DNA of 64,000 nucleotides from Lachnospiraceae bacterium (GTDB lineage Bacteria > Bacillota > Clostridia > Lachnospirales > Lachnospiraceae): NCBI GenBank assembly GCA_016284355.1, contig JAEEOQ010000099.1, forward strand, positions 181 through 64,180. Direction: 5' to 3'. Below, one piece after another: positions 2,495-11,995 of this stretch. Below the pieces are notes generated by a model that worked only from the letters and a program-made list of their open reading frames with translations, was not told the origin of the DNA and did not search any database. Position numbers and translations under genes: made by a program. The stretch's first letter is position 1; every line of letters starts with the position of its first letter.

Positions 2495-3811
2495 CTATTT
2501 CTTCTTGCGATCTGCAAGTATCTCACTACGTGTTCTTACAAATAACTGAGTAAGCTGCTTCTTTGCAGGACATACGTAAGTACAGCTTCCGCAGCCGTAG
2601 CACTCCATACCGTGAAGCTTTTCAAATGTTGCTTTGTCTCCCTTGCGGCAAGCTGCTGCCATCTTGGTAGGAACAAGCTGCATAGGACAAGCTGCAACAC
2701 AGCGACCACATCTGATACAAGCGGTCTCTTTGCTGTCTGCCACATCATCTTTTGCAAGAGCAAGAAGTGATGAGCTTGTCTTTGTAACAGGGATATCAAG
2801 TGTACTTAATGCTTTACCCATCATAGGGCCACCGGAGATGATCTTCTTAGGATCTACTCCAAAACCGCCGGCCTGTTTAACCATCTCGGCATAATGCATA
2901 CCGATACGTACGTTAACATTGACCGGTTCACGCACTGCCTCGCCTGTAAGTGTGATAATTCTTCTGATAAGCGGTGTGCTAAGGCATACTGCGTTGTAAA
3001 TTCCGATAACTGTATCAACATTGTCTACAATACAGCCTGCATCTGCAGGAAGTTTGTCTGAACCGATCTTTCTGCCGGTTACCATGTAGATTATCTGACG
3101 CTCAGCACCCTGTGGGTACTTGGTCTTTAATACTTTTACTGTGATATTTGATTCATTTGCTGTAAGCTCCTGAAGCTTCTTGATGGCTTCAGGCTTATTG
3201 TCTTCGATAGCAATGACACCCTTTGCTCCGTCAAAAAGACTGAGCATAACCTTAAGGCCGCCGATAACCTTTTCCGGCTCCTCAAGTAACATTCTATAAT
3301 CGGATGTGAGATAAGGCTCACATTCTGCTGCGTTCACGATCACGTGATCGATCTTTTCAGGCTCCTTTGGAGCGAGCTTTACATGTGTCGGGAAACCGGC
3401 TCCGCCCATTCCGACAATACCGGCCTCTTTAACGATCTCTTTGATCTCATCTTTACTGAGCTTGGTGTAGTCTCTTTCTTTGCCAAAACCTTCAACCGTT
3501 CTGTACTCTTCGTCGTTTTCGACGATGATGGACATAACCTTTGAACCGTCTACAGTCTGTCTAGGCTCGATAGCCTTAACCTTACCGGAAACAGAGCTGA
3601 TAACAGGAGAAGATACAAAACCTGTAGCTTCTGCTATCTTCTGTCCGACAAGGACAACATCTCCGACAGCAACGATAGGACTGGCCGGAGCGCCGATGTG
3701 CTGGCTTACCGGGAATACCATATCGCCCTTAGGTTGAACGGTCAGCGTAGGCTTATTCATAGAAATAGTTTTACCCTCGTAAGGATGAATTCCACCACGA
3801 AACGTTGACAT
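2495..3811 (-). CDS. rnfC: Rnf complex subunit C (NADH-binding, 2x[4Fe-4S])
   Basis: MSTFRGGIHP N-terminus, a GMGGAGFPTHVK nucleotide-binding motif and two ferredoxin-type motifs (CIRCGRCVAACP and CYGCGSCTYVCP). Confidence 0.92.
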   Translation of the reverse strand: MSTFRGGIHPYEGKTISMNKPTLTVQPKGDMVFPVSQHIGAPASPIVAVGDVVLVGQKIAEATGFVSSPVISSVSGKVKAIEPRQTVDGSKVMSIIVENDEEYRTVEGFGKERDYTKLSKDEIKEIVKEAGIVGMGGAGFPTHVKLAPKEPEKIDHVIVNAAECEPYLTSDYRMLLEEPEKVIGGLKVMLSLFDGAKGVIAIEDNKPEAIKKLQELTANESNITVKVLKTKYPQGAERQIIYMVTGRKIGSDKLPADAGCIVDNVDTVIGIYNAVCLSTPLIRRIITLTGEAVREPVNVNVRIGMHYAEMVKQAGGFGVDPKKIISGGPMMGKALSTLDIPVTKTSSSLLALAKDDVADSKETACIRCGRCVAACPMQLVPTKMAAACRKGDKATFEKLHGMECYGCGSCTYVCPAKKQLTQLFVRTRSEILADRKKK

Positions 3812-3964
3812 ATTCGTAATACCTCTTTCCTTAATATAATAGTTAACAGTTACACAAATTTGACAATGCAGAAAATTTGTTATAAAATCACACGTAGCAA
3901 TTATATCACAATTTTGTCCATTTTCAAATGATTATTGGGCGATAGGGTTTTTAATGAGGCATAA

Positions 3965-3988
3965 AATTGTACTTTTTAAAGTACAATT
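3965..3988. promoter_or_regulatory. Perfect palindrome AATTGTACTTT-TT-AAAGTACAATT, candidate TetR-family operator
   Basis: Two 11-bp perfect inverted arms in the rnfC / tetR divergent intergenic region, about 80 nt upstream of the TetR start. Position and symmetry are the only evidence. Confidence 0.3.
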
Positions 3989-4066
3989 GTCTGATCCGTC
4001 GGATTATTTTTAATTGTTTGATTAATTGATATGATTTTAACAATTTAGGAGAAGACCATTTAAAGT

Positions 4067-4681
4067 ATGAGAAATTTTGATGAAATAGACCGTACTATCC
4101 TTGATATATCAAGACAGCTTTTCTTCGATCAGGGTATCAGGAAAACAGAGATGAAAGATATAGCTTTAAAATGCGGTATCGGCAGAAGTACGCTTTATCG
4201 AAGATTTGAGAGCAAAGATGTTATTGCTTTTTATATTGCAAACGAGATATTGGCAGATCTTTCTGTTGCTACAGATTCCGTTCTTTCAGATGCAGGCGCT
4301 CTTTCCGGTCTTGATAAATTTAAGAAATTTGCTCATTCTTACGCAAATACTCTTATGACTCATCCTTTAGAAGTCCGTTTTCTTGATGAGTTTGACCAGA
4401 TCTTTACAGATGAGTACCCGGCAGAAGTAGGCGAGATATCCTTTACTTCTTCCCACAGCCCTAAGAATCGTTTTCTTATCGACATTATGGAAGAGGGCAA
4501 AAAAGACGGCAGCATGAATTACACCGAAACAGCGGATTATATGGCCTGGCTCTTTACAAATATGATAATGGGCATAGCCCAGCGTGTTTTACCAAGAGAA
4601 AAACACTACATCGAAGAGCAGGGCTACGGCAAAGAATTTGTTTCGTCGGCAGTTGAGATATTTATTAATTCGATCAGATAA
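4067..4681 (+). CDS. TetR/AcrR family transcriptional regulator
   Basis: N-terminal HTH typical of TetR (RKTEMKDIALKCGIGRSTLYRRFESKD). About 200 aa with an all-helical C-terminal half. Confidence 0.85.
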   Translation: MRNFDEIDRTILDISRQLFFDQGIRKTEMKDIALKCGIGRSTLYRRFESKDVIAFYIANEILADLSVATDSVLSDAGALSGLDKFKKFAHSYANTLMTHPLEVRFLDEFDQIFTDEYPAEVGEISFTSSHSPKNRFLIDIMEEGKKDGSMNYTETADYMAWLFTNMIMGIAQRVLPREKHYIEEQGYGKEFVSSAVEIFINSIR

Positions 4682-4684
4682 CTC

Positions 4685-4722
4685 AAAAGCTGTGAACCGC
4701 AACCCGGTTCACAGCTTTTTTG
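4685..4722. terminator. Bidirectional rho-independent terminator
   Basis: A 12-bp GC-containing stem (AGCTGTGAACCG / CGGTTCACAGCT) with a 5-nt loop. It is flanked by AAAA on one side and TTTTTT on the other, and lies between the convergent TetR gene and the rSAM operon. Confidence 0.8.
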
Positions 4723-4875
4723 CTAGTCTTCTATTCCCTTTTGGGTCTCATCGATCAGTTCACTTACAAGTCTGTCTACTTCTTCTTTGTCCCCGTTTTT
4801 ATTAGCCTCTTTTATGGCCTTAAGCCTGAAAAGAAGTCCACGAAGATAACTTTTGAAAACTGCCATGTCTTCCAT
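4723..4875 (-). CDS. Small 50-aa helical protein, last gene of the rSAM/Cys-repeat operon (not in the ORF track)
   Basis: Hand translation gives MEDMAVFKSYLRGLLFRLKAIKEANKNGDKEEVDRLVSELIDETQKGIED. The ATG is preceded by GGAGAGGTGGTG. It lies 42 nt downstream of the rSAM stop and directly upstream of the terminator. I recognise no family. Confidence 0.4.
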   Translation of the reverse strand: MEDMAVFKSYLRGLLFRLKAIKEANKNGDKEEVDRLVSELIDETQKGIED

Positions 4876-4917
4876 AACACCACCTCTCCGTAATTATATT
4901 ATTTTTTTAGAGTTAAA

Positions 4918-6189
4918 TCAATCAAGTGAAAGTATATTTTTCACAAAATCCGCGTCAAGATTGCATTTGATCCGTTCCTTCATACCTTCCGCGCGGTAGA
5001 GGTGATTGAAGTAGTAGGCATTTGCAAGGGCTCTTGCTTTATGCATCCTGCAGATAAAGGTGGTTCGCTTGTCCGGCGTTCCGTAGCAGGTGTAATTGCC
5101 GGCGCTGCACCAGGCGCAGCCCTTTGCCACAGGGCAGTTATAGCACTCATCGGTGCTCTGAGACCGTCTTGTTATACAGTTCATGCATTTTATGCGGGAC
5201 TGCTCAAGGGGCCTTTTCCCGATACCGTTTTTAATGTCCCCTATGGTAAATGGCGGATACTTGTCTCCCACAGAGCTTTCCATGTAGCGAAGACACGGAA
5301 ACAGCTTACCGTCAGGGTCAATTGCCAGCATTTTCCCGGTGCCGCCGCACCAGTTCTCGTTGTCATCTTCTCCCATAGGCTGAAAAAAGTATTCCTCAAA
5401 CAGCGAGACATAGATTTTTTCGTAAAGCTTTTCTCTTATCATTAGATCTGCGATCTTCTTCAGTTCTCTGTAAAAGATCTTCTCGTCCCCTTCTTGCCAC
5501 ACATCTTCAAATACGCAGTTTGCATATATGTCGCGATACCCAAGCTCTATCATGTTAAGCACCGCATCGTAAAGATATGGCAGGTTCTCATGAGAAATAG
5601 TGATCTTAGAGCCAAAATTCCTGTCGGTTTTAAGCATATCAAGGGCCGGCTTTATGGCAAGGTCATAGCTTCCTCTTCCGTCAGGGAACTTTCGGCATGA
5701 GTCGTGAAGCTCTTTATTGCCGTCTATGGTAACGGTGTAACTTAGGTGATGTTCATGTTTTTTAAGAAACGCCTTTACCTTCGGGGTATAGATGGTGCCG
5801 TTTGAAGTTATAGAGACCATCCACCTGTCTTTGTATTTCATATCTCCCGTAAGGGTCTTTTCCTGAAAATAGTCAATTATCTCGTCCATAAGGTCAACAG
5901 CAAGCATAGGCTCGCCCCCGATAAACTCAAGGATAACCCCCGGCAGATGTTTTATATCAAGGTAATCATCAAACCCCTTATCTCCCGTAAAAAGAAGGTC
6001 GATAAATTTCTTTGCAGTCTCAATGTCCATGACCCTGTGGCCTTTGCATATCTGGTAGCAGTACGTACAGGCCAGGTTGCAGTCATCTGTTACCTGCAGC
6101 GTTATGGTCTTTACTATGCCCTCTTCCTTTAATACCGTATTTACAAAATCTCCGAATTCCTGTGCTCTCTTATATAGCTTCACGTGCAT
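4918..6189 (-). CDS. Radical SAM / SPASM-domain peptide (protein) maturase
   Basis: Cx3Cx2C motif in VTDDCNLACTYCYQ. The C-terminal SPASM-like cysteine cluster reads WCGGTGKMLAIDPDGKLFPC ... CMNC ... CYNCPVAKGCAWC. It is adjacent to a cysteine-repeat protein. Confidence 0.9.
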   Translation of the reverse strand: MHVKLYKRAQEFGDFVNTVLKEEGIVKTITLQVTDDCNLACTYCYQICKGHRVMDIETAKKFIDLLFTGDKGFDDYLDIKHLPGVILEFIGGEPMLAVDLMDEIIDYFQEKTLTGDMKYKDRWMVSITSNGTIYTPKVKAFLKKHEHHLSYTVTIDGNKELHDSCRKFPDGRGSYDLAIKPALDMLKTDRNFGSKITISHENLPYLYDAVLNMIELGYRDIYANCVFEDVWQEGDEKIFYRELKKIADLMIREKLYEKIYVSLFEEYFFQPMGEDDNENWCGGTGKMLAIDPDGKLFPCLRYMESSVGDKYPPFTIGDIKNGIGKRPLEQSRIKCMNCITRRSQSTDECYNCPVAKGCAWCSAGNYTCYGTPDKRTTFICRMHKARALANAYYFNHLYRAEGMKERIKCNLDADFVKNILSLD

Positions 6190-6760
6190 TCATTTCCTTT
6201 TTCTTTAATCTAAGTTTTCTGCTGCCAAAATCAAGAGTCCACTCGTAGAGGCAAAGTGGAAAGCCCTTTGGAAGTATTGTCTCTTGAAAGATAACAGCAT
6301 CCATGTAATAGTCGCCCGCCTTCTTTTCATAGTCATTTATCAGCCTGTTTAAGCTGTCTTTAAGGGAATCCCTTGAAAATGCAAACACCACATCATCAAG
6401 AGCCCGCTCCTTCTCATATCCGTCTCTTTGAAGTCTTTCAAAAGCTTCATCTCCTGCTGCCGAAAGGTCTGCATTTATCTCAGACGGCAGGTGCGCATCA
6501 TCAGGGTATATCTGCAGGGTACCTTCAGAATGGTTAACGTAATAATATGCACCCGCAAGATCCATATTTTTAGGGAAAAATCCGGTTTTAAGTCTTACTG
6601 CGATCTTTTCTCTTTCAAGCAGGTTTTTATCAAGATCCGGCTTAAAGGCAGGGATCTTTGCAGCAAGTTCCGTGTAAATGTTTACATACACATCATTTAT
6701 CATTATCTCGGTCAGAAAATCTTCAGGTATCTTAGTTTCATACAAAAGGTCAAATTTCAT
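6170..6760 (-). CDS. Hypothetical protein (196 aa), rSAM-system accessory candidate
   Basis: ATG preceded by AGGAG. It overlaps the upstream gene by 11 nt and the rSAM gene by 20 nt, consistent with translational coupling. No family recognised. Confidence 0.65.
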   Translation of the reverse strand: MKFDLLYETKIPEDFLTEIMINDVYVNIYTELAAKIPAFKPDLDKNLLEREKIAVRLKTGFFPKNMDLAGAYYYVNHSEGTLQIYPDDAHLPSEINADLSAAGDEAFERLQRDGYEKERALDDVVFAFSRDSLKDSLNRLINDYEKKAGDYYMDAVIFQETILPKGFPLCLYEWTLDFGSRKLRLKKKEMNAREAI

Positions 6761-7073
6761 CTGTTATTACTCCTGTATTTCCGTTTGCGGAAAGGAACAC
6801 ATTTAAAAACTCCGTGGTATCGCCAAAAATATATCGGATGTTAGCCACGCATGCGTATTTCCTAAGGATCTCTTTTCCGGCGCTATTTATAAACTTTACC
6901 TCGCTTACATTCTTGTCCGTAAATGAGACCGCGATCTCTTCCGGTGTCTTTTTGCCAAGTTCCTCCTCATTTATAAGAAAATCGTCAAATGCACTCTTTC
7001 CGGGCTCAGCCTTCAGGTTTGCCTGAAGCCTGTCTATTTTAAACTCTGTACCGTCTTTTAAAACTATCTTCAT
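6750..7073 (-). CDS. Hypothetical protein (107 aa), rSAM-system accessory candidate
   Basis: ATG preceded by AAAGGAAG, 51 nt downstream of the Cys-repeat gene. No family recognised. Confidence 0.6.
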   Translation of the reverse strand: MKIVLKDGTEFKIDRLQANLKAEPGKSAFDDFLINEEELGKKTPEEIAVSFTDKNVSEVKFINSAGKEILRKYACVANIRYIFGDTTEFLNVFLSANGNTGVITDEI

Positions 7074-7124
7074 GTATCTTCCTTTCGTGGTTCTTGGTTT
7101 TTGTTTATTTTCTATGGATCTCTT

Positions 7125-7811
7125 TTACTTAAAGGATGAGGACATACAGCTTGAGCCGCCGCAGCCCCCAAGGCATACTCCGGAGCAATTACCGGAGCAC
7201 TTGCTTGAACTTATTGCACACTGTCTTGTACAAACTCCTACGCAGCTTGTACATGCAGATGTACAGTTTCCTTTGCATGCAGATGTACACCCGGAGCACC
7301 CGCCGCTGCAGGTTCCGGTACAAGAGGTGCAGCCTCCGCTGCATCCACCGCTGCAGCCCGTACAGCTTCCGCTGCAGGTTCCCGCACAGCCTCCGCAATA
7401 TGCAGAGCAGGAAACGCAACTTCCCTCGCAGGAACCGGAGCATGAAGTGCAGGCAGAAACGCAGGCAGATATGCATAGTCCGCTGCATGCACCTGCGCAG
7501 GAGCTTTTGGCTCCGTATCTTTTTGTTTCTGCCGCAAGTCTGTCCACATGGGCAATAAGCTCTGTATCAAAGCCATCAGGTATAGGGTCGCCCTTTTTTA
7601 CTTCTTTAAGACCGTTTACGGGAGCTATCTTTAAAATGAGGTCGATGGTTTTTTGCCCGTGCTCTGCCATAACAGGGCTTCCTGCTTCAGGCACCAGGTT
7701 AAAATCATAGTCGCTTCCCGCAAACACGGTCAAAGACCCGTTGCCGTCTCTTCGAAGAAGTTCGCTTTTTATCTTTGCTTTTAGTGTATTGATGTCTTTT
7801 GCGCTTAGCAT
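7125..7811 (-). CDS. Cysteine-repeat protein (228 aa): about 104-aa Cys-free N-terminal domain plus a 125-aa array with 31 Cys; presumed substrate of the adjacent rSAM maturase
   Basis: The C-terminal sequence is CAGACSGLCISACVSACTSCSGSCEGSCVSCSAYCGGCAGTCSGSCTGCSGGCSGGCTSCTGTCSGGCSGCTSACKGNCTSACTSCVGVCTRQC...CSGNCSGVCLGGCGGSSC. The ATG lies 3 nt after the preceding stop. The ORFs on the opposite strand here are low-complexity mirror images. Confidence 0.85.
   Translation of the reverse strand: MLSAKDINTLKAKIKSELLRRDGNGSLTVFAGSDYDFNLVPEAGSPVMAEHGQKTIDLILKIAPVNGLKEVKKGDPIPDGFDTELIAHVDRLAAETKRYGAKSSCAGACSGLCISACVSACTSCSGSCEGSCVSCSAYCGGCAGTCSGSCTGCSGGCSGGCTSCTGTCSGGCSGCTSACKGNCTSACTSCVGVCTRQCAISSSKCSGNCSGVCLGGCGGSSCMSSSFK
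7128..7499 (-). repeat. Coding tandem repeat: C-x2-C-x3-C-x3 units (11 residues, 33 bp), about 6 clear copies inside a longer C-x2/3 array
   Basis: Units read directly: CEGSCVSCSAY, CGGCAGTCSGS, CTGCSGGCSGG, CTSCTGTCSGG, CSGCTSACKGN, CTSACTSCVGV. The region is visibly more GC-rich than its flanks. Confidence 0.85.
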
Positions 7812-7814
7812 AGA

Positions 7815-8075
7815 TTACCCCCAAACAGCCCTTGTGGTCTCCCAGGTTACTCCGTTGTAGTACTTTATAACTCCGCCGGCTCCGGTATCTACCCAAAGGC
7901 TACCCTTATCAGCAGGTACAGAAGGTGATATCACTACTTCTGTTTTTATGTTGTCTTTAAATGTCATGCCGGAGGCAAGGGCATTTACAGGGTTTGCCAT
8001 CATAATCCCCGCCGCTGTAAGCGCTGTACCTTTTACAAAATCTTTTCTTGTGATCTTCTTATCAAATATGCTCAT
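7815..8075 (-). CDS. Small secreted protein (86 aa) with a twin-arginine-like (RK variant) signal peptide
   Basis: The N-terminus MSIFDKKITRKDFVKGTALTAAGIMMANPVNALA/SG resembles the Tat consensus S/T-R-R-x-F-L-K, followed by a hydrophobic region and an AxA cleavage site. AAGGAGA RBS. It lies between the coiled-coil gene and the Cys-repeat gene. Confidence 0.7.
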   Translation of the reverse strand: MSIFDKKITRKDFVKGTALTAAGIMMANPVNALASGMTFKDNIKTEVVISPSVPADKGSLWVDTGAGGVIKYYNGVTWETTRAVWG

Positions 8076-8084
8076 TTTTTCTCC

Positions 8085-9785
8085 TTAACCGTTATATATC
8101 ATTATCCGCTCTACGTAAGTGTCTGCAGGGTCTGCGATGTAAATACGCATATAGCCCTTATCGCCCTCATACCTTACTCTGCTTTGCGGCAGCACCGTGT
8201 AGAGAACCTCCACATGGGAGTCTGCCGTAAATGCGCTGTTTCTTATCTCGTAAAAATATTCGCCCTCTGCACTCTCCCAGCTTTCCTTTGCGATCTTAAA
8301 GCCTTTTATGTAGGTGATGCCAAGTCTTTCTTCGAGCCCGTCAAGTCTTCCGGCAAGAGCATCCCTCTCTGTTTTTGCATTTTCTTTTTCAGTTTCAATG
8401 CTGCCTGTAAGCTCTGTTTTGGCGTCTTCTATAGCTTTTTCAAAGTTTTTAGCAAGGTCATCTCTTGCGCTTTCAAGCTCGTTTCTTACAGATTCAAGGC
8501 CTAAAGCAAGGTCCTCTTTGGTATTTTCAAGATCTTCCTTGGTACTTTCAAGATCTTCCTTGGTACTTTCAAGGTCTTCCTTTGTTTCTGCAAGGTCTTC
8601 CTTTGTTTCTGCAAGGTCTTCTTTGGTGGCCGCAAGATCTTCCTCGGTGCCTGTCAGTTCTTCCCTGGTCTCGGCAAGATCCTCGTTTACCTCATCGATC
8701 CGCTCGTCAAGCCTTGATGATGTGGCCTCATTTAAAAGGTCGTAAAAGCCTTCAAGGATCTTCCTGCTGTAATCATTCTCCTTTGTTTTTATCTGCATGA
8801 GGCTGCTGATATCAAGATCTGCTGCCCCCTCAAGAGCAGTGGTGATCTCTGATTCGTATAGATCAATGGCAGCAAGAAGTTCTCCCCTCTTAGCTTCTGC
8901 TACATCAGGAAGCCTAAGGCCTGCCGTCTTAGCCCTTGCAAGGCCTGCGTATGCTACAACTCTTTCTGCAAGTTCCGCAGCATTTATGCCGCGGCGAAGG
9001 GAGTCTATAAGCTCTTTTGTATTTCCGTTGCTTGTGTTAAGGTCTTCTGTCAGGACGTCAAGCCGCAAGGAAAGATTTGCCACCTGCCTGTCAAGGCCCT
9101 TAAAGCGCGCCTCTCCCTCAGCCATATACGCGTAAAGTTTTTCGGAAAGCCCTGAGATAGATGCCATAAGGCTTGCACTCTTGCTTTCCGTAAGCCCGGT
9201 AAGCTCAGTTTTTATCTGTTCAAAGCGAAGGTCCGTGTTTTCCTTGTCTTCTCCCCAGGTGTGGTTAAGGTTTTCAAGCTTTTCGCTGACCGCCCTTACC
9301 TCTTCCTTAAAGGAGCCAAGGTTATTTCTGTATTCTTGTAAATTTTCTCTGTATTCTTTTAAATCGTCTCTGTATTCTTTTATCTCTGTTTCATTTTTGC
9401 CACTTAGCTTAACTTCACTCTTCAGTTCCCCGTCAATGCGCTCGATGCTGCTAAAAATGCTGTCAATCGAAGCATTTACCGTTTCAAGACCTGTGATAAG
9501 GGCGGGCGCATCCTCTTTTTTTGCATCTTTTACCTTTTCCTTAAGGTCTTCTATATCCGCCACCAGGGCGGCGATCTTTTCGTCTATCTCTTCTTTGTAT
9601 TTGCTGCTTGCTCCGGTGTTTTCCGCTTTTCCACTTTCCGCGGATTTCCCGCTCTCATTTTCCACACGTGTGGAAACTTTTTCCGCCGCTGCTCTCTTCC
9701 CGCTGCCGCTTACTAGGCCCACACTCGCAAAAAGCGCGAGCACAAGGCTAAGGGCAAGAGCTGTGGCTGTTATCTGTTTTTTCAT
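8085..9785 (-). CDS. Signal-anchored coiled-coil protein (about 566 aa) with heptad tandem repeats and a small beta-rich C-terminal domain
   Basis: I place the start at the internal ATG at 9785 (MKKQITATALALSLVLALFASVGLVSG, with AGGAGA upstream). The track ORF extends to 9857 inside tatC. Most of the protein is long charged heptad-rich sequence. Confidence 0.8.
   Translation of the reverse strand: MKKQITATALALSLVLALFASVGLVSGSGKRAAAEKVSTRVENESGKSAESGKAENTGASSKYKEEIDEKIAALVADIEDLKEKVKDAKKEDAPALITGLETVNASIDSIFSSIERIDGELKSEVKLSGKNETEIKEYRDDLKEYRENLQEYRNNLGSFKEEVRAVSEKLENLNHTWGEDKENTDLRFEQIKTELTGLTESKSASLMASISGLSEKLYAYMAEGEARFKGLDRQVANLSLRLDVLTEDLNTSNGNTKELIDSLRRGINAAELAERVVAYAGLARAKTAGLRLPDVAEAKRGELLAAIDLYESEITTALEGAADLDISSLMQIKTKENDYSRKILEGFYDLLNEATSSRLDERIDEVNEDLAETREELTGTEEDLAATKEDLAETKEDLAETKEDLESTKEDLESTKEDLENTKEDLALGLESVRNELESARDDLAKNFEKAIEDAKTELTGSIETEKENAKTERDALAGRLDGLEERLGITYIKGFKIAKESWESAEGEYFYEIRNSAFTADSHVEVLYTVLPQSRVRYEGDKGYMRIYIADPADTYVERIMIYNG
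8499..8687 (-). repeat. 21-bp (7-aa) coding tandem repeat, TKEDLxx, about 8 copies
   Basis: Protein: EDLAETREELTGTEEDLAATKEDLAETKEDLAETKEDLESTKEDLESTKEDLENTKEDLALG. The DNA shows near-identical 21-mers (for example ggtactttcaagatcttcctt twice, and tttgtttctgcaaggtcttcc twice). Confidence 0.8.
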
Positions 9786-10494
9786 CTTTTTTGATTTCTC
9801 CTGTTGTTTTTTTGCTTTTAAGTAAGGCGCCAAGGGTACAGACTTCATAAACCGCAAGAAGCGGAAGCGCCACCGCTATCATGCTGAAAATATCCGGTGG
9901 GGTCATAAATGCCGCAAGAAGAAAAGCAAGCGGATACACCGCAGGTCTGATCTTCTTTAATATGGCAGACCCCACTATCCCCCTTCTGACAAGTAAAAGA
10001 AGCAAGGAAAAAGCAAACGCAAGGATCCCGCAGGAAATGCCGGCACTTAAGAGGAAAGATAACGCTTTTTCCAGCGTAAATTCAGCCCTAAGCCCCTGTC
10101 CTTCCGAAACTTTTATAAAGAGCCTTACTGCAGCGTATACAAGAAATCTTACTCCGCAGATTGCCCCTGTTATGAAGGCCGCAAAAGGTGCGATCAAAAG
10201 TCTTTTTTTGACGCGGATCTGCAGATAGGATGCCAGAGAAAACAGGGCAAACGGGGCTGTCAGCACAAGGGCCGATACCGCAGCCAGATTTACGCCGCTT
10301 ACAATGATCTCGACAGGTGATAACATACGTATATCAAGTCCCATCTTTTTTGACTCATTTACAATTGTTTTAAGTATTTCCGGAGATAAAATGTAAAATA
10401 AGATAAACAGAATTCCCCAGATAATAAGACAAAAAGCTGTTTGCTTTCTTGCTTCTTTAATATGTTCGCCCACGGTCATAAGGTCATCTTTCAT
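9748..10494 (-). CDS. tatC: Twin-arginine translocase subunit TatC
   Basis: Six-TM protein with the characteristic TatC motif region (AFMTPPDIFSMIAVALPLL) and a typical N-terminal amphipathic segment (GEHIKEARK). It overlaps the end of tatA. Confidence 0.85.
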   Translation of the reverse strand: MKDDLMTVGEHIKEARKQTAFCLIIWGILFILFYILSPEILKTIVNESKKMGLDIRMLSPVEIIVSGVNLAAVSALVLTAPFALFSLASYLQIRVKKRLLIAPFAAFITGAICGVRFLVYAAVRLFIKVSEGQGLRAEFTLEKALSFLLSAGISCGILAFAFSLLLLLVRRGIVGSAILKKIRPAVYPLAFLLAAFMTPPDIFSMIAVALPLLAVYEVCTLGALLKSKKTTGEIKKDEKTDNSHSSCP

Positions 10495-10627
10495 TTCCCA
10501 TGCCGCCGCTCTTTAAATAGTCCATAGACTGTTTTAATGCCTCTGTGACCTTTGGAAGCTGCTTTGGTCCAAATAACAAAACAACCACAGCAAGTATCAC
10601 CAGGGCTTCAGCCATTCCGATGCGCAA
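10484..10627 (-). CDS. tatA: Twin-arginine translocase subunit TatA/E (47 aa, not in the ORF track)
   Basis: Hand translation from the TTG at 10627 (GGGAGGTG lies 7 nt upstream) gives (M)RIGMAEALVILAVVVLLFGPKQLPKVTEALKQSMDYLKSGGMGNER. This has the TatA hallmark of a TM helix followed by FGPKKLP-like and amphipathic segments. An alternative ATG is at 10615. Confidence 0.65.
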   Translation of the reverse strand: MRIGMAEALVILAVVVLLFGPKQLPKVTEALKQSMDYLKSGGMGNER

Positions 10628-10662
10628 TGCATCTCACCTCCCTTTCGTAATTTGCAGGGCAT

Positions 10663-10691
10663 ATGATACCTAGTTTTCCCTGCAAAATCAA
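10663..10691 (-). promoter_or_regulatory. Candidate sigma-A promoter for the tatA-to-rSAM operon (TTGATT-17-TATCAT)
   Basis: Read on the minus strand about 35 nt upstream of the tatA RBS. It overlaps a 7-bp inverted repeat (TGCAGGG / CCCTGCA). Two TTTGTACA boxes lie further upstream. Match to consensus is the only evidence. Confidence 0.3.
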
Positions 10692-11035
10692 CCCGTAATA
10701 ATGTACAAAGTTTTTTGCGGGAAAGGCCTCTTAAATCTTTGTACAAATTGACGAAAAAGTATTTAGTTTTACATATTTTACTTTCAAGCAACTGACATGG
10801 GCCCCGGGCGTAAAGCGTGGATTTTGGCTGATTTAAGAGGTACGTGATTTTTATGAACAATAGTAATTTTGGACGTCGAAAACATCAGGCTTGACAATAT
10901 TTGATGTAAAAGTCGGAAACGCTTGCAGTTTGGGGCTTTTCGGCAAGAGCGATTAAAATAGATCAAGCCGCCATGGATTTTTTATCATCTCTGGCGGCCT
11001 TATTTTTCTTTTATTTTTTGTGATCTACCCCGGGG

Positions 11036-11995
11036 TTACTCCTTATCAAACTCCCACACTCTGGTGTAGGTCTGCTCTTTACCGGGTCTTAAAGATATTG
11101 TTACGAAATTTTCTGCGCACATAACGTGGTCTGTGCCCCAGATGGTGATCTTTTCAGGGAAGAAGCTTCCGCTTTCTCGCACCGATAGTCCTTCTATCGT
11201 ATCTTTAAGTTCGTAGTAAAAGTCAGGGAACTTAGCCTCGCTTTCATCTACAAGCCTACTTTTTGGAAGCTCAAGGAAAATATTAAGACCTTCCACATTT
11301 TTAGTCCAGCTTATCTCGTTTCCTTTTACGCTAATAGGCGACTCTGCCTTTCCGCATACTATTCCGTGCTCATCCGTCTTATCAAAGATAAAGCTTTCGC
11401 TTTCAAGGCTTTTTGCAAAAGGAACTGTCATTTTATAGTCAGGACCGATGGGTTTGCCGTTTGCATTAAAGAAGTTGTGCTGGTACTCATTGATATTTAT
11501 ATCTTTTTTGCCGGCATTTGCAATTACGGTCTTAATAAGGATCTTGTTTCCTGTTACGGATAGTTTTTTTGTTATCTCAATAGGGAAAGCAGGTGTTTCT
11601 TTGTCTCCTGTTTCAGGGCTTTGGGTAAATGTAAAGCCGTCTTCTTCCTGCTTTATATCTATCTTAAAGGTCTTTGCCTTATAATCTCCGAATATGTAAA
11701 AAGGCATTCCGTCTTTTAGCTGGCAAAGAAGCCCCACCCCGGGTTTTGTAAACCACTCGCCCTCTTTTAAGGACTGAAGGTCTTCAGGAACCGAAAACTC
11801 TGCAGAAAGTCCAAAACCATTTGCAGAAACTCTGCCTTCTTTTATCTGTTCGCTTGTTCCAAAAGAATATTTTCCGTCAAGTACTATCTCTTTTACTCTG
11901 CAGGCCGCGTCAAAACGGAGCGTAGAGCGCTCATTTCCTTCCGGAATCTCCAAAACCAGCCTTAACCTGTCTTTTTCAAATACAATATCTTTCAT
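11036..11995 (-). CDS. Hypothetical protein (about 319 aa), beta-rich, possibly galactose-mutarotase-like fold
   Basis: Long ORF with normal composition. I place the start at MKDIVFEKDRL (ATG at 11995), because the track ORF extension to 12148 runs through a terminator and two tRNA genes. The fold suggestion is a weak impression only. Confidence 0.6.
   Translation of the reverse strand: MKDIVFEKDRLRLVLEIPEGNERSTLRFDAACRVKEIVLDGKYSFGTSEQIKEGRVSANGFGLSAEFSVPEDLQSLKEGEWFTKPGVGLLCQLKDGMPFYIFGDYKAKTFKIDIKQEEDGFTFTQSPETGDKETPAFPIEITKKLSVTGNKILIKTVIANAGKKDININEYQHNFFNANGKPIGPDYKMTVPFAKSLESESFIFDKTDEHGIVCGKAESPISVKGNEISWTKNVEGLNIFLELPKSRLVDESEAKFPDFYYELKDTIEGLSVRESGSFFPEKITIWGTDHVMCAENFVTISLRPGKEQTYTRVWEFDKE

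What the first reader, a model, noticed from the sequence alone, without database searches (positions are those of the whole stretch)
7815..8075. 86-aa protein with an RK-variant twin-arginine signal next to a signal-less Cys-repeat protein: possible Tat hitchhiking carrier
KKITRKDFVKGTALTAAGIMMANPVNALA/SG closely mimics the S/T-R-R-x-F-L-K Tat motif with an h-region and an AxA site, except that it has RK instead of RR. It is the only Tat-type signal I can find in the operon that carries tatAC.

Its stop is 3 nt from the start of the Cys-repeat gene, which has no export signal. In known Tat systems, signal-less partners can be co-exported bound to a signal-bearing subunit. The predicted mature peptide (about 51 aa, ending ...GSLWVDTGAGGVIKYYNGVTWETTRAVWG) could be such a carrier, or a separate secreted product.
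Basis: inference. Interest (0 to 1): 0.6.

Follow-up and report, generated by a model that had tools for sequence, protein, structure and literature searches.

The report
Single-arginine Tat signal escort protein
This 86-residue protein carries a Tat-type export signal that keeps only the first of the two hallmark arginines, matched by a private TatC that has lost the pocket for the second arginine, and it is always encoded beside a signal-less, radical-SAM-matured cysteine-array protein that it may carry out of the cell.

Summary
ORF 7815-8075(-) encodes 86 aa with T-R-K-D-F-V-K, a 24-residue uncharged stretch and ALA|SG. Its stop lies 3 nt before the Cys-array gene.

RK is not a quirk. About 66 relatives share [ST]-R-x-[DE]-F-[LI]-K-K. 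R and F are invariant in the 39-sequence alignment. The second position is K in 56% of relatives, otherwise L/A/G/S/M/E/T; RR occurs in only 2.

In all 10 loci where the upstream DNA is visible, the gene lies just downstream of tatA/tatC. In all 11 loci it sits beside a homologue of the Cys-array protein's N-domain, and the TIGR04115-type radical SAM gene follows in 7 of them.

All 10 system TatCs keep H12, E15 and F94, which bind the first Arg and the Phe. All lack E103, the salt-bridge partner of the second Arg. All 11 ordinary TatCs from the same order keep E103. This TatC is the genome's only one.

I therefore read the protein as the cognate substrate of a "single-arginine" Tat variant (about 0.75-0.8).

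The hitchhiking role is plausible but untested (about 0.45):
- For: strict synteny, in-cis RR signals on Bacteroidota Cys-arrays, and an analogous Tat-signal PqqD-like protein in another genome.
- Not for: an AlphaFold fusion model was uninformative, and no natural fusion was found.

The parts
10484..10627 (-). tatA (47 aa, TTG start), first gene of the operon
   Evidence: PF02416 at 37.9 bits (cut-off 21) and TIGR01411 at 37.8 bits. Sister loci usually carry two tatA paralogues.
9748..10494 (-). Divergent tatC (248 aa). It keeps H11/E14/Y (equivalent to E. coli H12/E15/F94) and lacks the E103/Y100 pocket; its loop reads ASYLQIRVKKRLL.
   Evidence: PF00902 at 87.6 bits, against about 200 bits for ordinary TatCs of the order. 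It is the only TatC in the assembly. See the alignment to E. coli TatC 9dzz_A and the multiple alignments. It sits on a long branch of the tree.
8085..9857 (-). Signal-anchored coiled-coil protein (590-aa ORF) ending in a small beta-rich domain. This component is optional in the module.
   Evidence: Only coiled-coil-type Pfam/NCBIfam matches, all below their cut-offs. A 625-852-aa coiled-coil protein occupies the same position in L021, L023, L027, L029, L048 and L049, and is absent in L025, L028, L030 and L047.
8081..8086 (-). Shine-Dalgarno sequence AAGGAG of the 86-aa gene, 5 nt before the ATG and overlapping the stop of the upstream gene
   Evidence: Read directly from the sequence.
7815..8075 (-). 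The 86-aa gene: signal peptide, 51-aa mature peptide and stop codon
   Evidence: family alignments; HMMER search with 296 hits.
8031..8051 (-). Residues 9-15, T-R-K-D-F-V-K: the Tat-consensus motif with Lys in place of the second Arg
   Evidence: R10 and F13 are invariant in 39 sequences. In 68 regex-matched sequences (about 66 true members) the second position is K 37, L 8, A 6, G 5, S 3, M 2, E 2, R 2, T 2, P 1.
7971..8030 (-). Residues 16-35: weakly hydrophobic h-region and c-region ending in the A-L-A|S-G signal-peptidase site
   Evidence: There are 24 uncharged residues from G16 to F39 (sequence). An AxA-type site aligns across the family, and most members have a basic residue just after the h-region. 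AF2 predicts a helix at 10-25 and disorder at 28-38.
7818..7970 (-). Predicted mature peptide, residues 36-86. It starts with the conserved (M)TFxDN and contains a four-stranded beta domain (residues 47-80) with the LWxDT..GG..KY.NG..W...VWG motif.
   Evidence: AF2 pLDDT is 88-90 over residues 50-80, with strands at 47-50, 60-63, 69-73 and 78-80. The motif recurs 1-13 times in larger proteins. Foldseek found no significant match.
7125..7811 (-). Signal-less 228-aa protein: a ~104-aa N-domain followed by a 31-Cys CxxxC/CxxC array. It is the presumed radical SAM substrate and the proposed passenger.
   Evidence: N-domain homologues (29-48% identical; HMM E-values 2e-13 to 5e-42) lie next to the p86 homologue in all 11 loci. 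The Tat-linked N-domains share a GQKTIDLLLKI..YKDL..V.KGDPIP..F segment that is absent or divergent in the phage-borne ones.
6750..7073 (-). 107-aa protein of unknown family
   Evidence: No family match.
6170..6760 (-). 196-aa protein of unknown family
   Evidence: No family match.
4918..6189 (-). Radical SAM/SPASM peptide maturase of the CXXX-repeat target family
   Evidence: TIGR04115 at 449.9 bits (cut-off 350); the next best is PapB at 194 bits. Homologues 47-51% identical follow the module in L021, L023, L029, L030, L047 and L049.

Best explanation
The 86-aa protein is the dedicated, signal-bearing client of the operon's private TatA/TatC translocase.

**How the signal works.** Its N-terminus is a Tat-type signal reduced to one arginine: [ST]-R-x-[DE]-F-[LI]-K-K, then a short weakly hydrophobic h-region, usually a basic residue after it, and an AxA site. 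The co-encoded TatC keeps the elements that bind the first Arg and the Phe in E. coli TatC (H12, E15, F94, L9/L13). It has lost the Y100/E103 pocket that salt-bridges the second Arg. Receptor and signal have therefore relaxed at the same position.

**What happens next (inferred).** After transport, signal peptidase cuts at ALA|SG and leaves a ~51-aa four-stranded beta domain outside the cell.

**Why the cell does this (inferred).** In the cytoplasm the radical SAM enzyme cross-links the Cys array of the neighbouring 228-aa protein, which has no signal. The mature domain of the 86-aa protein binds that protein's conserved N-domain. The folded, cross-linked complex then crosses the membrane through Tat on the single signal peptide, as a hitchhiker.

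**Status of each step.**
- Shown: gene, motif, family, synteny, and the TatC residue pattern.
- Inferred: Tat dependence, cleavage, binding and co-export.

**Odds.** About 0.75-0.8 that it is the Tat client. About 0.45 that it is the carrier; that is the figure given for the whole statement.
For: **Motif**
- T-R-K-D-F-V-K matches the Tat consensus S/T-R-R-x-F-L-K at every position except the second R.
- R and F are invariant in 39 sequences. The second position is variable: K 56%, RR in only 2 of about 66 members.

**Synteny**
- In 10/10 loci with visible upstream DNA the order is tatA(-tatA)-tatC-(coiled coil)-p86 homologue. These are the window plus L021, L023, L025, L027, L028, L029, L030, L047 and L048.
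- In 11/11 loci, a CXXX N-domain protein lies within two genes downstream.

**TatC residues**
- All 10 system TatCs keep H12/E15/F94(F or Y), and none has E103.
- 9 of the 10 have no acidic residue within 15 residues after F94.
- All 11 ordinary TatCs of the same order, plus E. coli, have E103.
- PMC13323110: the first Arg binds E15 and F94; the second Arg forms a salt bridge with E103 and packs on Y100; the Phe sits in the pocket formed by F94/L9/H12/L13.
- bioRxiv 10.1101/135103: TatC E103K and signals lacking the Arg pair (twin-lysine variants) work when the h-region is more hydrophobic, and the authors state that a single arginine is likewise compatible.

**Genome context**
- This is the genome's only TatC.
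- No other protein in the genome carries the motif.
- TatC is rare in the order, found in 14 of 301 genomes.

**For the carrier role**
- CXXX+rSAM modules without Tat also lack p86, and they sit in phage tail modules where lysis makes export unnecessary.
- Bacteroidota CXXX arrays carry in-cis DRRRFI / DRRKFII signals, so arrays look like Tat cargo elsewhere.
- G225 has tatA-tatC-tatC', then a TRREFLKL signal fused to a PqqD-like peptide-binding domain (PF05402, 23.6 bits against a cut-off of 23.4), then a PapB-like rSAM, then a 150-aa Cys-rich protein.
Against: - There is no experimental or structural evidence of binding. The AF2 model of the in-frame read-through fusion (p86-QS-N-domain) gave pTM 0.28 and no gain in confidence for either domain. 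The MSA was shallow and the linker unnaturally short, so this is uninformative rather than negative.
- No natural fusion of the p86 module with the CXXX N-domain exists among the 188 retrieved proteins.
- Six sister loci (L021, L023, L027, L029, L048, L049) also encode Cys-array proteins with their own N-terminal signals. Arrays can therefore be exported in cis there, and p86 may have another role.
- Curated Tat-signal profiles do not recognise the protein.
- The system TatCs are compatible with a single clade (78% bootstrap). The loss of E103 may then be one event, which makes the covariation weaker than 10 against 12 suggests.
- L023's TatC has EE two to three residues before the E103 column.
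- The assembly is only 80% complete.
Confidence: 0.45

Rival explanations
1. p86 is a genuine client of the private single-arginine Tat system but does not carry the Cys-array protein. It is exported alone. Outside the cell it acts as a small structural or adaptor unit, for example a foldon-like oligomerisation or capping module that works with the membrane-anchored coiled-coil protein or with separately exported Cys-arrays. The 228-aa protein either stays inside or leaves by another route.
For: - The mature domain is an autonomous, confidently predicted beta module.
- The same module occurs 1-13 times in large proteins and at the extreme C-terminus of fibre-like proteins with GTLPVAQGGTGA repeats (P0009, P0012, P0168), some carrying the same signal.
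- The best Foldseek hits, though not significant, are collagen XV/XVIII trimerisation domains.
- Sister loci encode Cys-arrays with their own signals.
- The AF2 fusion model showed no interface.
Against: - It does not explain why a signal-less N-domain protein is an invariant neighbour in 11/11 loci.
- It does not explain why, in this window, the only Cys array sits on that signal-less protein.
- The coiled-coil partner is missing in 4 of 11 loci.
Confidence: 0.3
2. The N-terminus is an ordinary Sec-type signal, or an uncleaved membrane anchor, whose resemblance to the Tat motif is inherited but no longer used. The operon's TatAC then exports something else or is decaying.
For: - RK and other R-x pairs are typical of Sec n-regions.
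- Tat profiles TIGR01409 and PF10518 give no hit.
- The window's TatC lies on a very long branch.
- The window's own c-region has no basic "Sec-avoidance" residue.
Against: - Sec n-regions carry no conserved sequence motif. Here S/T, R, D/E, F, L/I and K are conserved across about 66 proteins down to about 27% identity.
- The invariant Phe and Arg correspond to the two contacts whose TatC partners are retained (PMC13323110).
- The gene is tied to tatAC in 10/10 loci.
- No other candidate client exists in this operon or genome.
- The TatC matches the full length of PF00902 (positions 1-208) and keeps the PPD motif.
Confidence: 0.12
3. p86 is not exported cargo. It is a cytoplasmic or membrane-associated accessory of the maturation pathway, such as a recognition or chaperone element for the radical SAM enzyme, and its hydrophobic N-terminus merely tethers it to the membrane near TatC.
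For: - In G225 the corresponding position is held by a PqqD-like RiPP recognition element.
- The window's radical SAM enzyme lacks the ~120-140-aa N-terminal extension seen in sister loci.
Against: - A conserved AxA cleavage site and a short, weakly hydrophobic h-region argue for a cleaved signal rather than an anchor.
- p86 shows no similarity to PqqD or other RRE families.
- Phage-borne CXXX/rSAM modules work without it.
Confidence: 0.08

Closest known systems
Tat "hitchhiker" co-translocation, e.g. E. coli hydrogenase-2 HybO/HybC (Rodrigue et al. 1999, J Biol Chem 274:13223, as cited in PMC13323110) and DmsA/DmsB (from my own knowledge)
   Same: One subunit carries the signal and the other has none. 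Both are encoded side by side. The cargo is folded or modified in the cytoplasm before transport.
   Different: - Known carriers are large cofactor-containing enzyme subunits with canonical RR signals that use the housekeeping Tat system.
- Here the carrier would be a 51-aa beta module with a single-Arg signal and a private, divergent TatAC.
- The passenger would be a radical-SAM-cross-linked Cys-array protein.
- Complex formation is not shown.
Natural and engineered non-RR Tat signals: Salmonella TtrB (KR), plant Rieske (KR) and penicillin amidase (RNR), all from my own knowledge; SufI signal variants and TatC E103K/F94D suppression (Huang & Palmer, bioRxiv 10.1101/135103)
   Same: The rest of the consensus (S/T, F, L, K) is kept while one Arg is replaced. 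The experimental work shows that the twin Arg and the E103 site are not mechanistically essential.
   Different: - The known natural exceptions are isolated substrates of an otherwise RR-specific TatC.
- Here a whole family of about 66 proteins has freed the second position (K, L, A, G, S, M, E, T).
- Its dedicated TatC clade lacks E103, so the change is on the receptor side as well.
CXXX-repeat radical SAM peptide modification system (NCBIfam TIGR04115 maturase; PapB/freyrasin ranthipeptide maturases as the nearest characterised enzymes)
   Same: The radical SAM enzyme scores 449.9 bits against a cut-off of 350, and a CxxxC array protein lies adjacent.
   Different: - The 86-aa protein, the coiled-coil protein and the two small proteins match none of the curated families.
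- In Bacteroidota the array protein carries its own RR signal and lipobox.
- In phages the module has no export genes.
- Here the signal sits on a separate gene.
G225 locus of the same order (L046): tatA-tatC-tatC', then a Tat-signal PqqD-like protein, then a PapB-like rSAM, then a 150-aa Cys-rich protein
   Same: The architecture is the same: a private Tat system, a small signal-bearing protein, a radical SAM/SPASM enzyme, and a signal-less Cys-rich protein.
   Different: - The families are unrelated.
- The signal is a canonical TRREFLKL.
- The mature part is a recognisable peptide-binding RRE.
- One of the two TatCs keeps E103.

Membership tests
Canonical twin-arginine (Tat) signal peptide | Two consecutive arginines in the n-region | tested here: not met
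   The window protein has R10-K11. Across the family the second position is K 56%, then L/A/G/S/M/E/T; RR occurs in 2 of about 66 members.
Canonical twin-arginine (Tat) signal peptide | The rest of the consensus: S/T before the Arg pair, then x-F-L-K | tested here: met
   T9, D12, F13, V14 and K15 in the window protein. Family consensus is [ST]-R-x-[DE]-F-[LI]-K-K, with F invariant.
Canonical twin-arginine (Tat) signal peptide | An uncharged, weakly hydrophobic h-region of at least ~13 residues, followed by an AxA cleavage site (TatFIND-type rules, recalled from memory) | tested here: met
   G16-F39 is uncharged (24 residues), and the site is A-L-A|S-G. In the family the median h-region is 12 residues with mean Kyte-Doolittle hydropathy 1.73. 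A basic residue follows the h-region in most members, though not in the window protein.
Canonical twin-arginine (Tat) signal peptide | Recognition by the curated profiles TIGR01409 / PF10518 | tested here: not met
   No hit even at E<=10. The RR-bearing member P0017 reaches 16.0 bits against a cut-off of 16.7.
Canonical twin-arginine (Tat) signal peptide | Export depends on TatC and is independent of Sec | not testable with these tools
   Only indirect evidence: linkage to tatAC in 10/10 loci, and a matching change in the TatC binding site.
Tat hitchhiker pair | The partner lacks any signal peptide and is encoded next to the signal-bearing subunit | tested here: met
   The 228-aa protein has no N-terminal hydrophobic segment and starts 3 nt after the p86 stop. 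The adjacency holds in 11/11 loci.
Tat hitchhiker pair | A stable cytoplasmic complex between carrier and passenger | tested here: inconclusive
   The AF2 model of the read-through fusion gave pTM 0.28 with no gain in pLDDT. No Rosetta-stone fusion was found. No multimer tool was available.
Tat hitchhiker pair | Export of the passenger requires the carrier's signal | not testable with these tools
   Needs genetics and fractionation.
TatC (PF00902) with a canonical signal-binding site | Conserved H12, E15, F94, Y100 and E103 (E. coli numbering; PMC13323110, PMC3827258) | tested here: not met
   The window TatC has H, E and Y at positions 12, 15 and 94, but K at 100 and a gap at 103. All 10 system TatCs lack E103, while 11/11 ordinary TatCs of the order have it. 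Family membership itself is met (87.6 bits against a cut-off of 25.1).
CXXX-repeat radical SAM system (TIGR04115 and companion families) | The p86 protein belongs to one of the curated companion families | tested here: not met
   p86 has no NCBIfam or Pfam hit at E<=10. The maturase itself is a member at 449.9 bits.
DUF2510 / Reg_prop-type beta-hairpin motifs | A score above the Pfam gathering threshold | tested here: not met
   Only sub-threshold hits in relatives: P0162 at 13 bits, P0011 at 23.8 and P0185 at 16.7, against a cut-off of 24. The window protein has none.

The most novel reading that the evidence does not exclude
A naturally evolved "single-arginine" Tat pathway. A TatC clade has discarded the Y100/E103 pocket for the second arginine. 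It has co-evolved with a family of ~90-aa escort proteins whose signal needs only S/T-R-x-D/E-F-L-K. The escort supplies the signal in trans, so that a radical-SAM-cross-linked Cys-array protein with no signal of its own crosses the membrane already folded. This would be a dedicated piggy-back export route for RiPP-like proteins, carried on mobile modules in gut and rumen Firmicutes.
Probability: 0.4. Interest if true: 0.85.

Novelty: new variant of a known kind. Interest (0 to 1): 0.72.

Why it matters
The arginine pair is the defining and "almost invariant" feature of Tat targeting. TatC E103 is a conserved residue that is inactivating when mutated in E. coli.

A natural lineage in which both the signal and the receptor have dropped the second-arginine contact would have three consequences:
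- It would give a natural counterpart to the laboratory suppressor results.
- It would show that predictors such as TatFIND, TatP and TIGR01409 systematically miss a class of Tat clients.
- It would provide a compact orthogonal signal/translocase pair for engineering.

If the escort role is real, it would also be the first case I know of in which a post-translationally cross-linked RiPP-type protein is secreted by hitchhiking on Tat rather than by an ABC exporter. That would explain how rigid thioether-bridged proteins leave the cell.

Tried and rejected
- **Pfam, NCBIfam and PHROGs scans of p86:** no family found. The only PHROG hits were of unknown function at E>=0.014.
- **Searches for relatives in reference collections:**
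  - 40 related genomes gave only chance-level hits.
  - GTDB genome contigs gave one spurious Tat-signal match in a Bacteroidota genome. The first attempt failed because the alignment had no conserved stretch.
  - INPHARED phages gave nothing for p86 or for the CXXX N-domain.
  - IMG/VR gave nothing.
  - The family is therefore essentially metagenomic.
- **Fold comparison:** a Foldseek search of the AF2 model against the PDB gave nothing significant. The best hit had E=2.5, to collagen XV/XVIII trimerisation domains. I keep this only as a lead for a foldon-like role.
- **Fusion model:**
  - I read the TAA stop as Gln to obtain an in-frame p86-QS-N-domain fusion for AF2.
  - MAFFT twice mis-aligned the N-domain rows onto the signal, and I fixed this by trimming.
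  - The model was uninformative (pTM 0.28).
  - The shared reading frame of the two genes is not conserved in sister loci, so I reject programmed read-through.
- **Idea that the p86 module derives from the tail-fibre gene next to phage-borne CXXX genes:** rejected. The module HMM finds nothing there.
- **Rosetta-stone fusion of the p86 module with the CXXX N-domain:** none among 188 retrieved proteins.
- **Literature:** searches for "CXXX repeat", TIGR04115 and Tat/hitchhiker/RiPP returned nothing relevant.
- **Promoter/terminator scan:** not above shuffled expectation for promoters.
Full report
**1.
- ORF 7815-8075 on the minus strand encodes the quoted 86 residues.
- A strong Shine-Dalgarno sequence (AAGGAG, 8081-8086) lies 5 nt before the ATG and overlaps the stop of the upstream gene.
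- The stop TAA is followed by TCT and then the ATG of the 228-aa Cys-array gene at 7811.
- Residues 9-15 are T-R-K-D-F-V-K. They are followed by 24 uncharged residues (G16-F39) and A-L-A|S-G.
- The 228-aa neighbour starts MLSAKDINTLKAKIKSELLRRDG and has no hydrophobic N-terminus.

**2. The operon.** On the minus strand the genes run in this order:
- tatA (10484-10627; PF02416, 37.9 bits)
- tatC (9748-10494; PF00902, 87.6 bits)
- a signal-anchored coiled-coil protein (8085-9857)
- the 86-aa gene
- the Cys-array gene (7125-7811)
- two genes of unknown family (6750-7073 and 6170-6760)
- a radical SAM/SPASM maturase that scores 449.9 bits against TIGR04115, "CXXX-repeat target family" (cut-off 350)

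This tatC is the only one in the 2.71-Mb assembly, which is 80% complete. TatC is rare in the order: 14 of 301 sampled genomes have one, and ordinary copies score about 200 bits against 88 here. A scan of 43,488 ORF starts in the genome for [ST]R[^R][DEQST]F[LIVM][KRQ] plus a hydrophobic stretch returns only this protein. I saw no convincing S/T-R-R-x-F-L-K signal among the RR hits.

**3. RK is a family trait.**
- Word-indexed searches found four close homologues at 67-94% identity, all with S-R-K-D-F-V-K.
- An exhaustive HMMER search found 296 hits. Several dozen are full-length proteins of roughly 82-130 aa.
- In an alignment of 39 sequences, R10 and F13 are invariant in the signal. P54, W61, D63, G68, G75, W78 and W85 are invariant in the mature part.
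- A regex for the motif matched 68 sequences, of which about 66 are true members. The position after the Arg is K 37, L 8, A 6, G 5, S 3, M 2, E 2, R 2, T 2, P 1. The position before it is S or T in 65.
- The h-region is short (median 12 residues, mean Kyte-Doolittle hydropathy 1.73). Most members have a basic residue right after it, and an AxA-type site aligns throughout.
- These are Tat-like features. Sec n-regions carry no conserved sequence motif.
- Curated Tat profiles depend on RR and do not call the window protein. The RR-bearing member P0017 just misses TIGR01409, at 16.0 bits against 16.7.

**4. Conserved synteny.** I fetched the DNA around ten homologues that are only 27-36% identical, and around one close homologue.
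- In every locus whose upstream DNA is present (9 of these plus the window), the order is tatA(-tatA)-tatC-(625-852-aa coiled-coil protein, absent in four loci)-p86 homologue.
- In all 11 loci a homologue of the 228-aa protein's N-domain follows within two genes (29-48% identity).
- A TIGR04115-type maturase (47-51% identical) follows wherever the contig reaches far enough, except in L025.
- By contrast, CXXX+rSAM modules in other genomes of the order have neither Tat genes nor p86. Those with enough flank lie in phage tail and baseplate modules.

**5. The receptor has changed at the matching position.**
- The cryo-EM structure of E. coli TatBC with a bound signal (PMC13323110) shows three contacts. 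The first Arg contacts E15 through a water molecule and stacks under F94. The second Arg forms a salt bridge with E103 and packs on Y100. The consensus Phe sits in a pocket made of F94, L9, H12 and L13.
- I aligned the window TatC to E. coli TatC. I then aligned 10 system TatCs, 11 ordinary TatCs from the same order, and E. coli TatC.
- All 10 system TatCs keep H12, E15 and F94 (F or Y), and have a hydrophobic residue at positions 9 and 13.
- None has Glu at position 103. The residues there are K, R, H, Q, F, C or a gap. The window loop reads ASYLQIRVKKRLL.
- Nine of the ten have no acidic residue at all in the 15 residues after F94.
- All 11 ordinary TatCs and E. coli have E103.
- So the contacts for the invariant Arg and Phe are kept, and the contact for the now-variable position is gone.
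- This has a laboratory precedent. TatC E103K inactivates E. coli Tat, but more hydrophobic h-regions rescue it, and they likewise rescue twin-lysine signals; the authors conclude that a single arginine is compatible too (bioRxiv 10.1101/135103).
- Caveat: the system TatCs are compatible with a single clade (78% bootstrap), and the window's copy is on a very long branch. The loss of E103 may therefore be one historical event rather than ten.

**6. The mature part.**
- AlphaFold2 with the 39-sequence alignment gives a signal helix at 10-25, a disordered linker at 28-38, and a confident four-stranded beta domain (strands 47-50, 60-63, 69-73, 78-80; pLDDT 88-90).
- Foldseek finds nothing significant in the PDB. 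The top hits, at E 2.5-5, are collagen XV/XVIII trimerisation domains.
- The LWxDT..GG..KY.NG..W motif recurs 1-13 times in large proteins, and at the extreme C-terminus of fibre-like proteins, some of which carry the same signal.
- It resembles DUF2510 and Reg_prop hairpins only below their thresholds.
- A foldon-like oligomerisation role is possible but unproven.

**7. Is it a carrier?**

Evidence for:
- The signal-less N-domain protein is an invariant neighbour.
- p86 and tatAC appear and disappear together relative to the CXXX/rSAM core.
- In Bacteroidota the Cys-array proteins themselves carry twin-arginine signals (DRRRFI, DRRKFII) followed by a lipobox. Arrays therefore look like Tat cargo elsewhere, which fits cytoplasmic radical SAM cross-linking before export.
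- An unrelated locus in the same order (G225) has a similar layout. It carries tatA-tatC-tatC', then a 132-aa protein with a TRREFLKL signal fused to a PqqD-like peptide-binding domain (PF05402, 23.6 bits against a cut-off of 23.4). A PapB-like rSAM and a 150-aa protein with 22 Cys follow. That is the same logic, with the signal placed on the protein that binds the peptide.
- Tat-linked N-domains share a segment (GQKTIDLLLKI..YKDL..V.KGDPIP..F) that phage-borne ones lack or have in divergent form.

Evidence against or missing:
- An AF2 model of the in-frame read-through fusion gave pTM 0.28 and no gain in confidence.
- No natural fusion was found.
- Six sister loci also encode Cys-arrays with their own N-terminal signals immediately after the p86 homologue. 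Gene callers often mis-called these in a Val-rich wrong frame.
- In this window no such gene exists. The only array sits on the signal-less protein, which makes a signal in trans more necessary here than elsewhere.

**8. Verdict.**
- The protein is very probably the cognate client of a private, divergent Tat system that recognises a single-arginine signal (about 0.75-0.8).
- That it escorts the Cys-array protein through Tat is the most economical reading of the comparative data, but it is untested (about 0.45).
- The main rival is independent export as a small extracellular module (about 0.3).
- This is a new variant of known kinds (Tat targeting, Tat hitchhiking, the CXXX radical SAM system) rather than a new category.

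Noticed in passing
L046 (G225:C36:6000-24000), minus strand about 3750-11128: A second, unrelated "private Tat + radical SAM + Cys-rich protein" locus in the same order. Its genes are: tatA; two tatC paralogues (one lacks H12/E15/F94/E103, the other keeps H12/F94/E103 but has M at position 15); a 132-aa protein with a TRREFLKL signal fused to a PqqD-like domain; a PapB-like rSAM/SPASM; a 150-aa protein with 22 Cys; a TPR protein; a B12-rSAM; and a U32 peptidase.
   Followed up: partly
L021:10329-10922, L023 about 10330-10950, L029 about 10300-11345 (two genes), L027 about 10860-11395, L048:10315-10875, L049:2211-2996: Extra Cys-array genes with their own K/R-rich, Ala/Thr/Val-rich N-terminal signals lie directly after the p86 homologues. 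In several records the gene caller instead called a Val/His-rich ORF in the wrong frame (for example L021:10495-10986).
   Followed up: partly
L060:8238-8966(-), L061:8319-9134(-): Bacteroidota CXXX-array proteins carry in-cis twin-arginine signals (DRRRFI, DRRKFII) followed by a lipobox-like Cys (LVDSC, LTGC). This suggests Tat-exported lipoproteins. No private tatAC was found by BLAST within the fetched flanks (about 7-8 kb on each side of the maturase gene).
   Followed up: partly
window 7811-8075: The 86-aa gene and the Cys-array gene are in the same reading frame, separated only by TAA-TCT. The frame relation is not conserved in sister loci, so it is probably a coincidence.
   Followed up: yes
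L021:11858-14581, L022:11846-14569: The CXXX-type radical SAM gene is interrupted by an intein (Hint_2, Intein_splicing and LAGLIDADG_3 hits), giving a 907-aa product.
   Followed up: no
L047 (21-kb contig), L028/L030, L029: The contigs carrying Tat-linked modules hold mostly proteins without Pfam hits. The exceptions are DNA polymerase A, dCMP deaminase and DUF2201 (L047), FtsH plus DnaJ (L028, L030), ParA and NADAR-DarT1 (L029), and integrases (L025, L030). The module may ride on large phages, plasmids or islands. Searches of IMG/VR and INPHARED found nothing.
   Followed up: partly
L016:6179-17958(-), L017:1-13480(+): CXXX protein plus rSAM modules without Tat or p86 lie at the end of complete myovirus-like tail and baseplate gene sets, directly after a tail-fibre gene.
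   Followed up: partly
P0009, P0027, P0038, P0012, P0168 (no loci fetched): Long proteins of up to 837 aa start with the same single-Arg signal and p86 module, then continue into GTLPVAQGGTGA-type fibre repeats. Some end with a second copy of the module. They could be Tat-exported fibres.
   Followed up: no
window 9748-10494: The window's TatC lies on a very long branch (3.17 substitutions per site) even among the system TatCs, and it is only 21-24% identical to them.
   Followed up: partly
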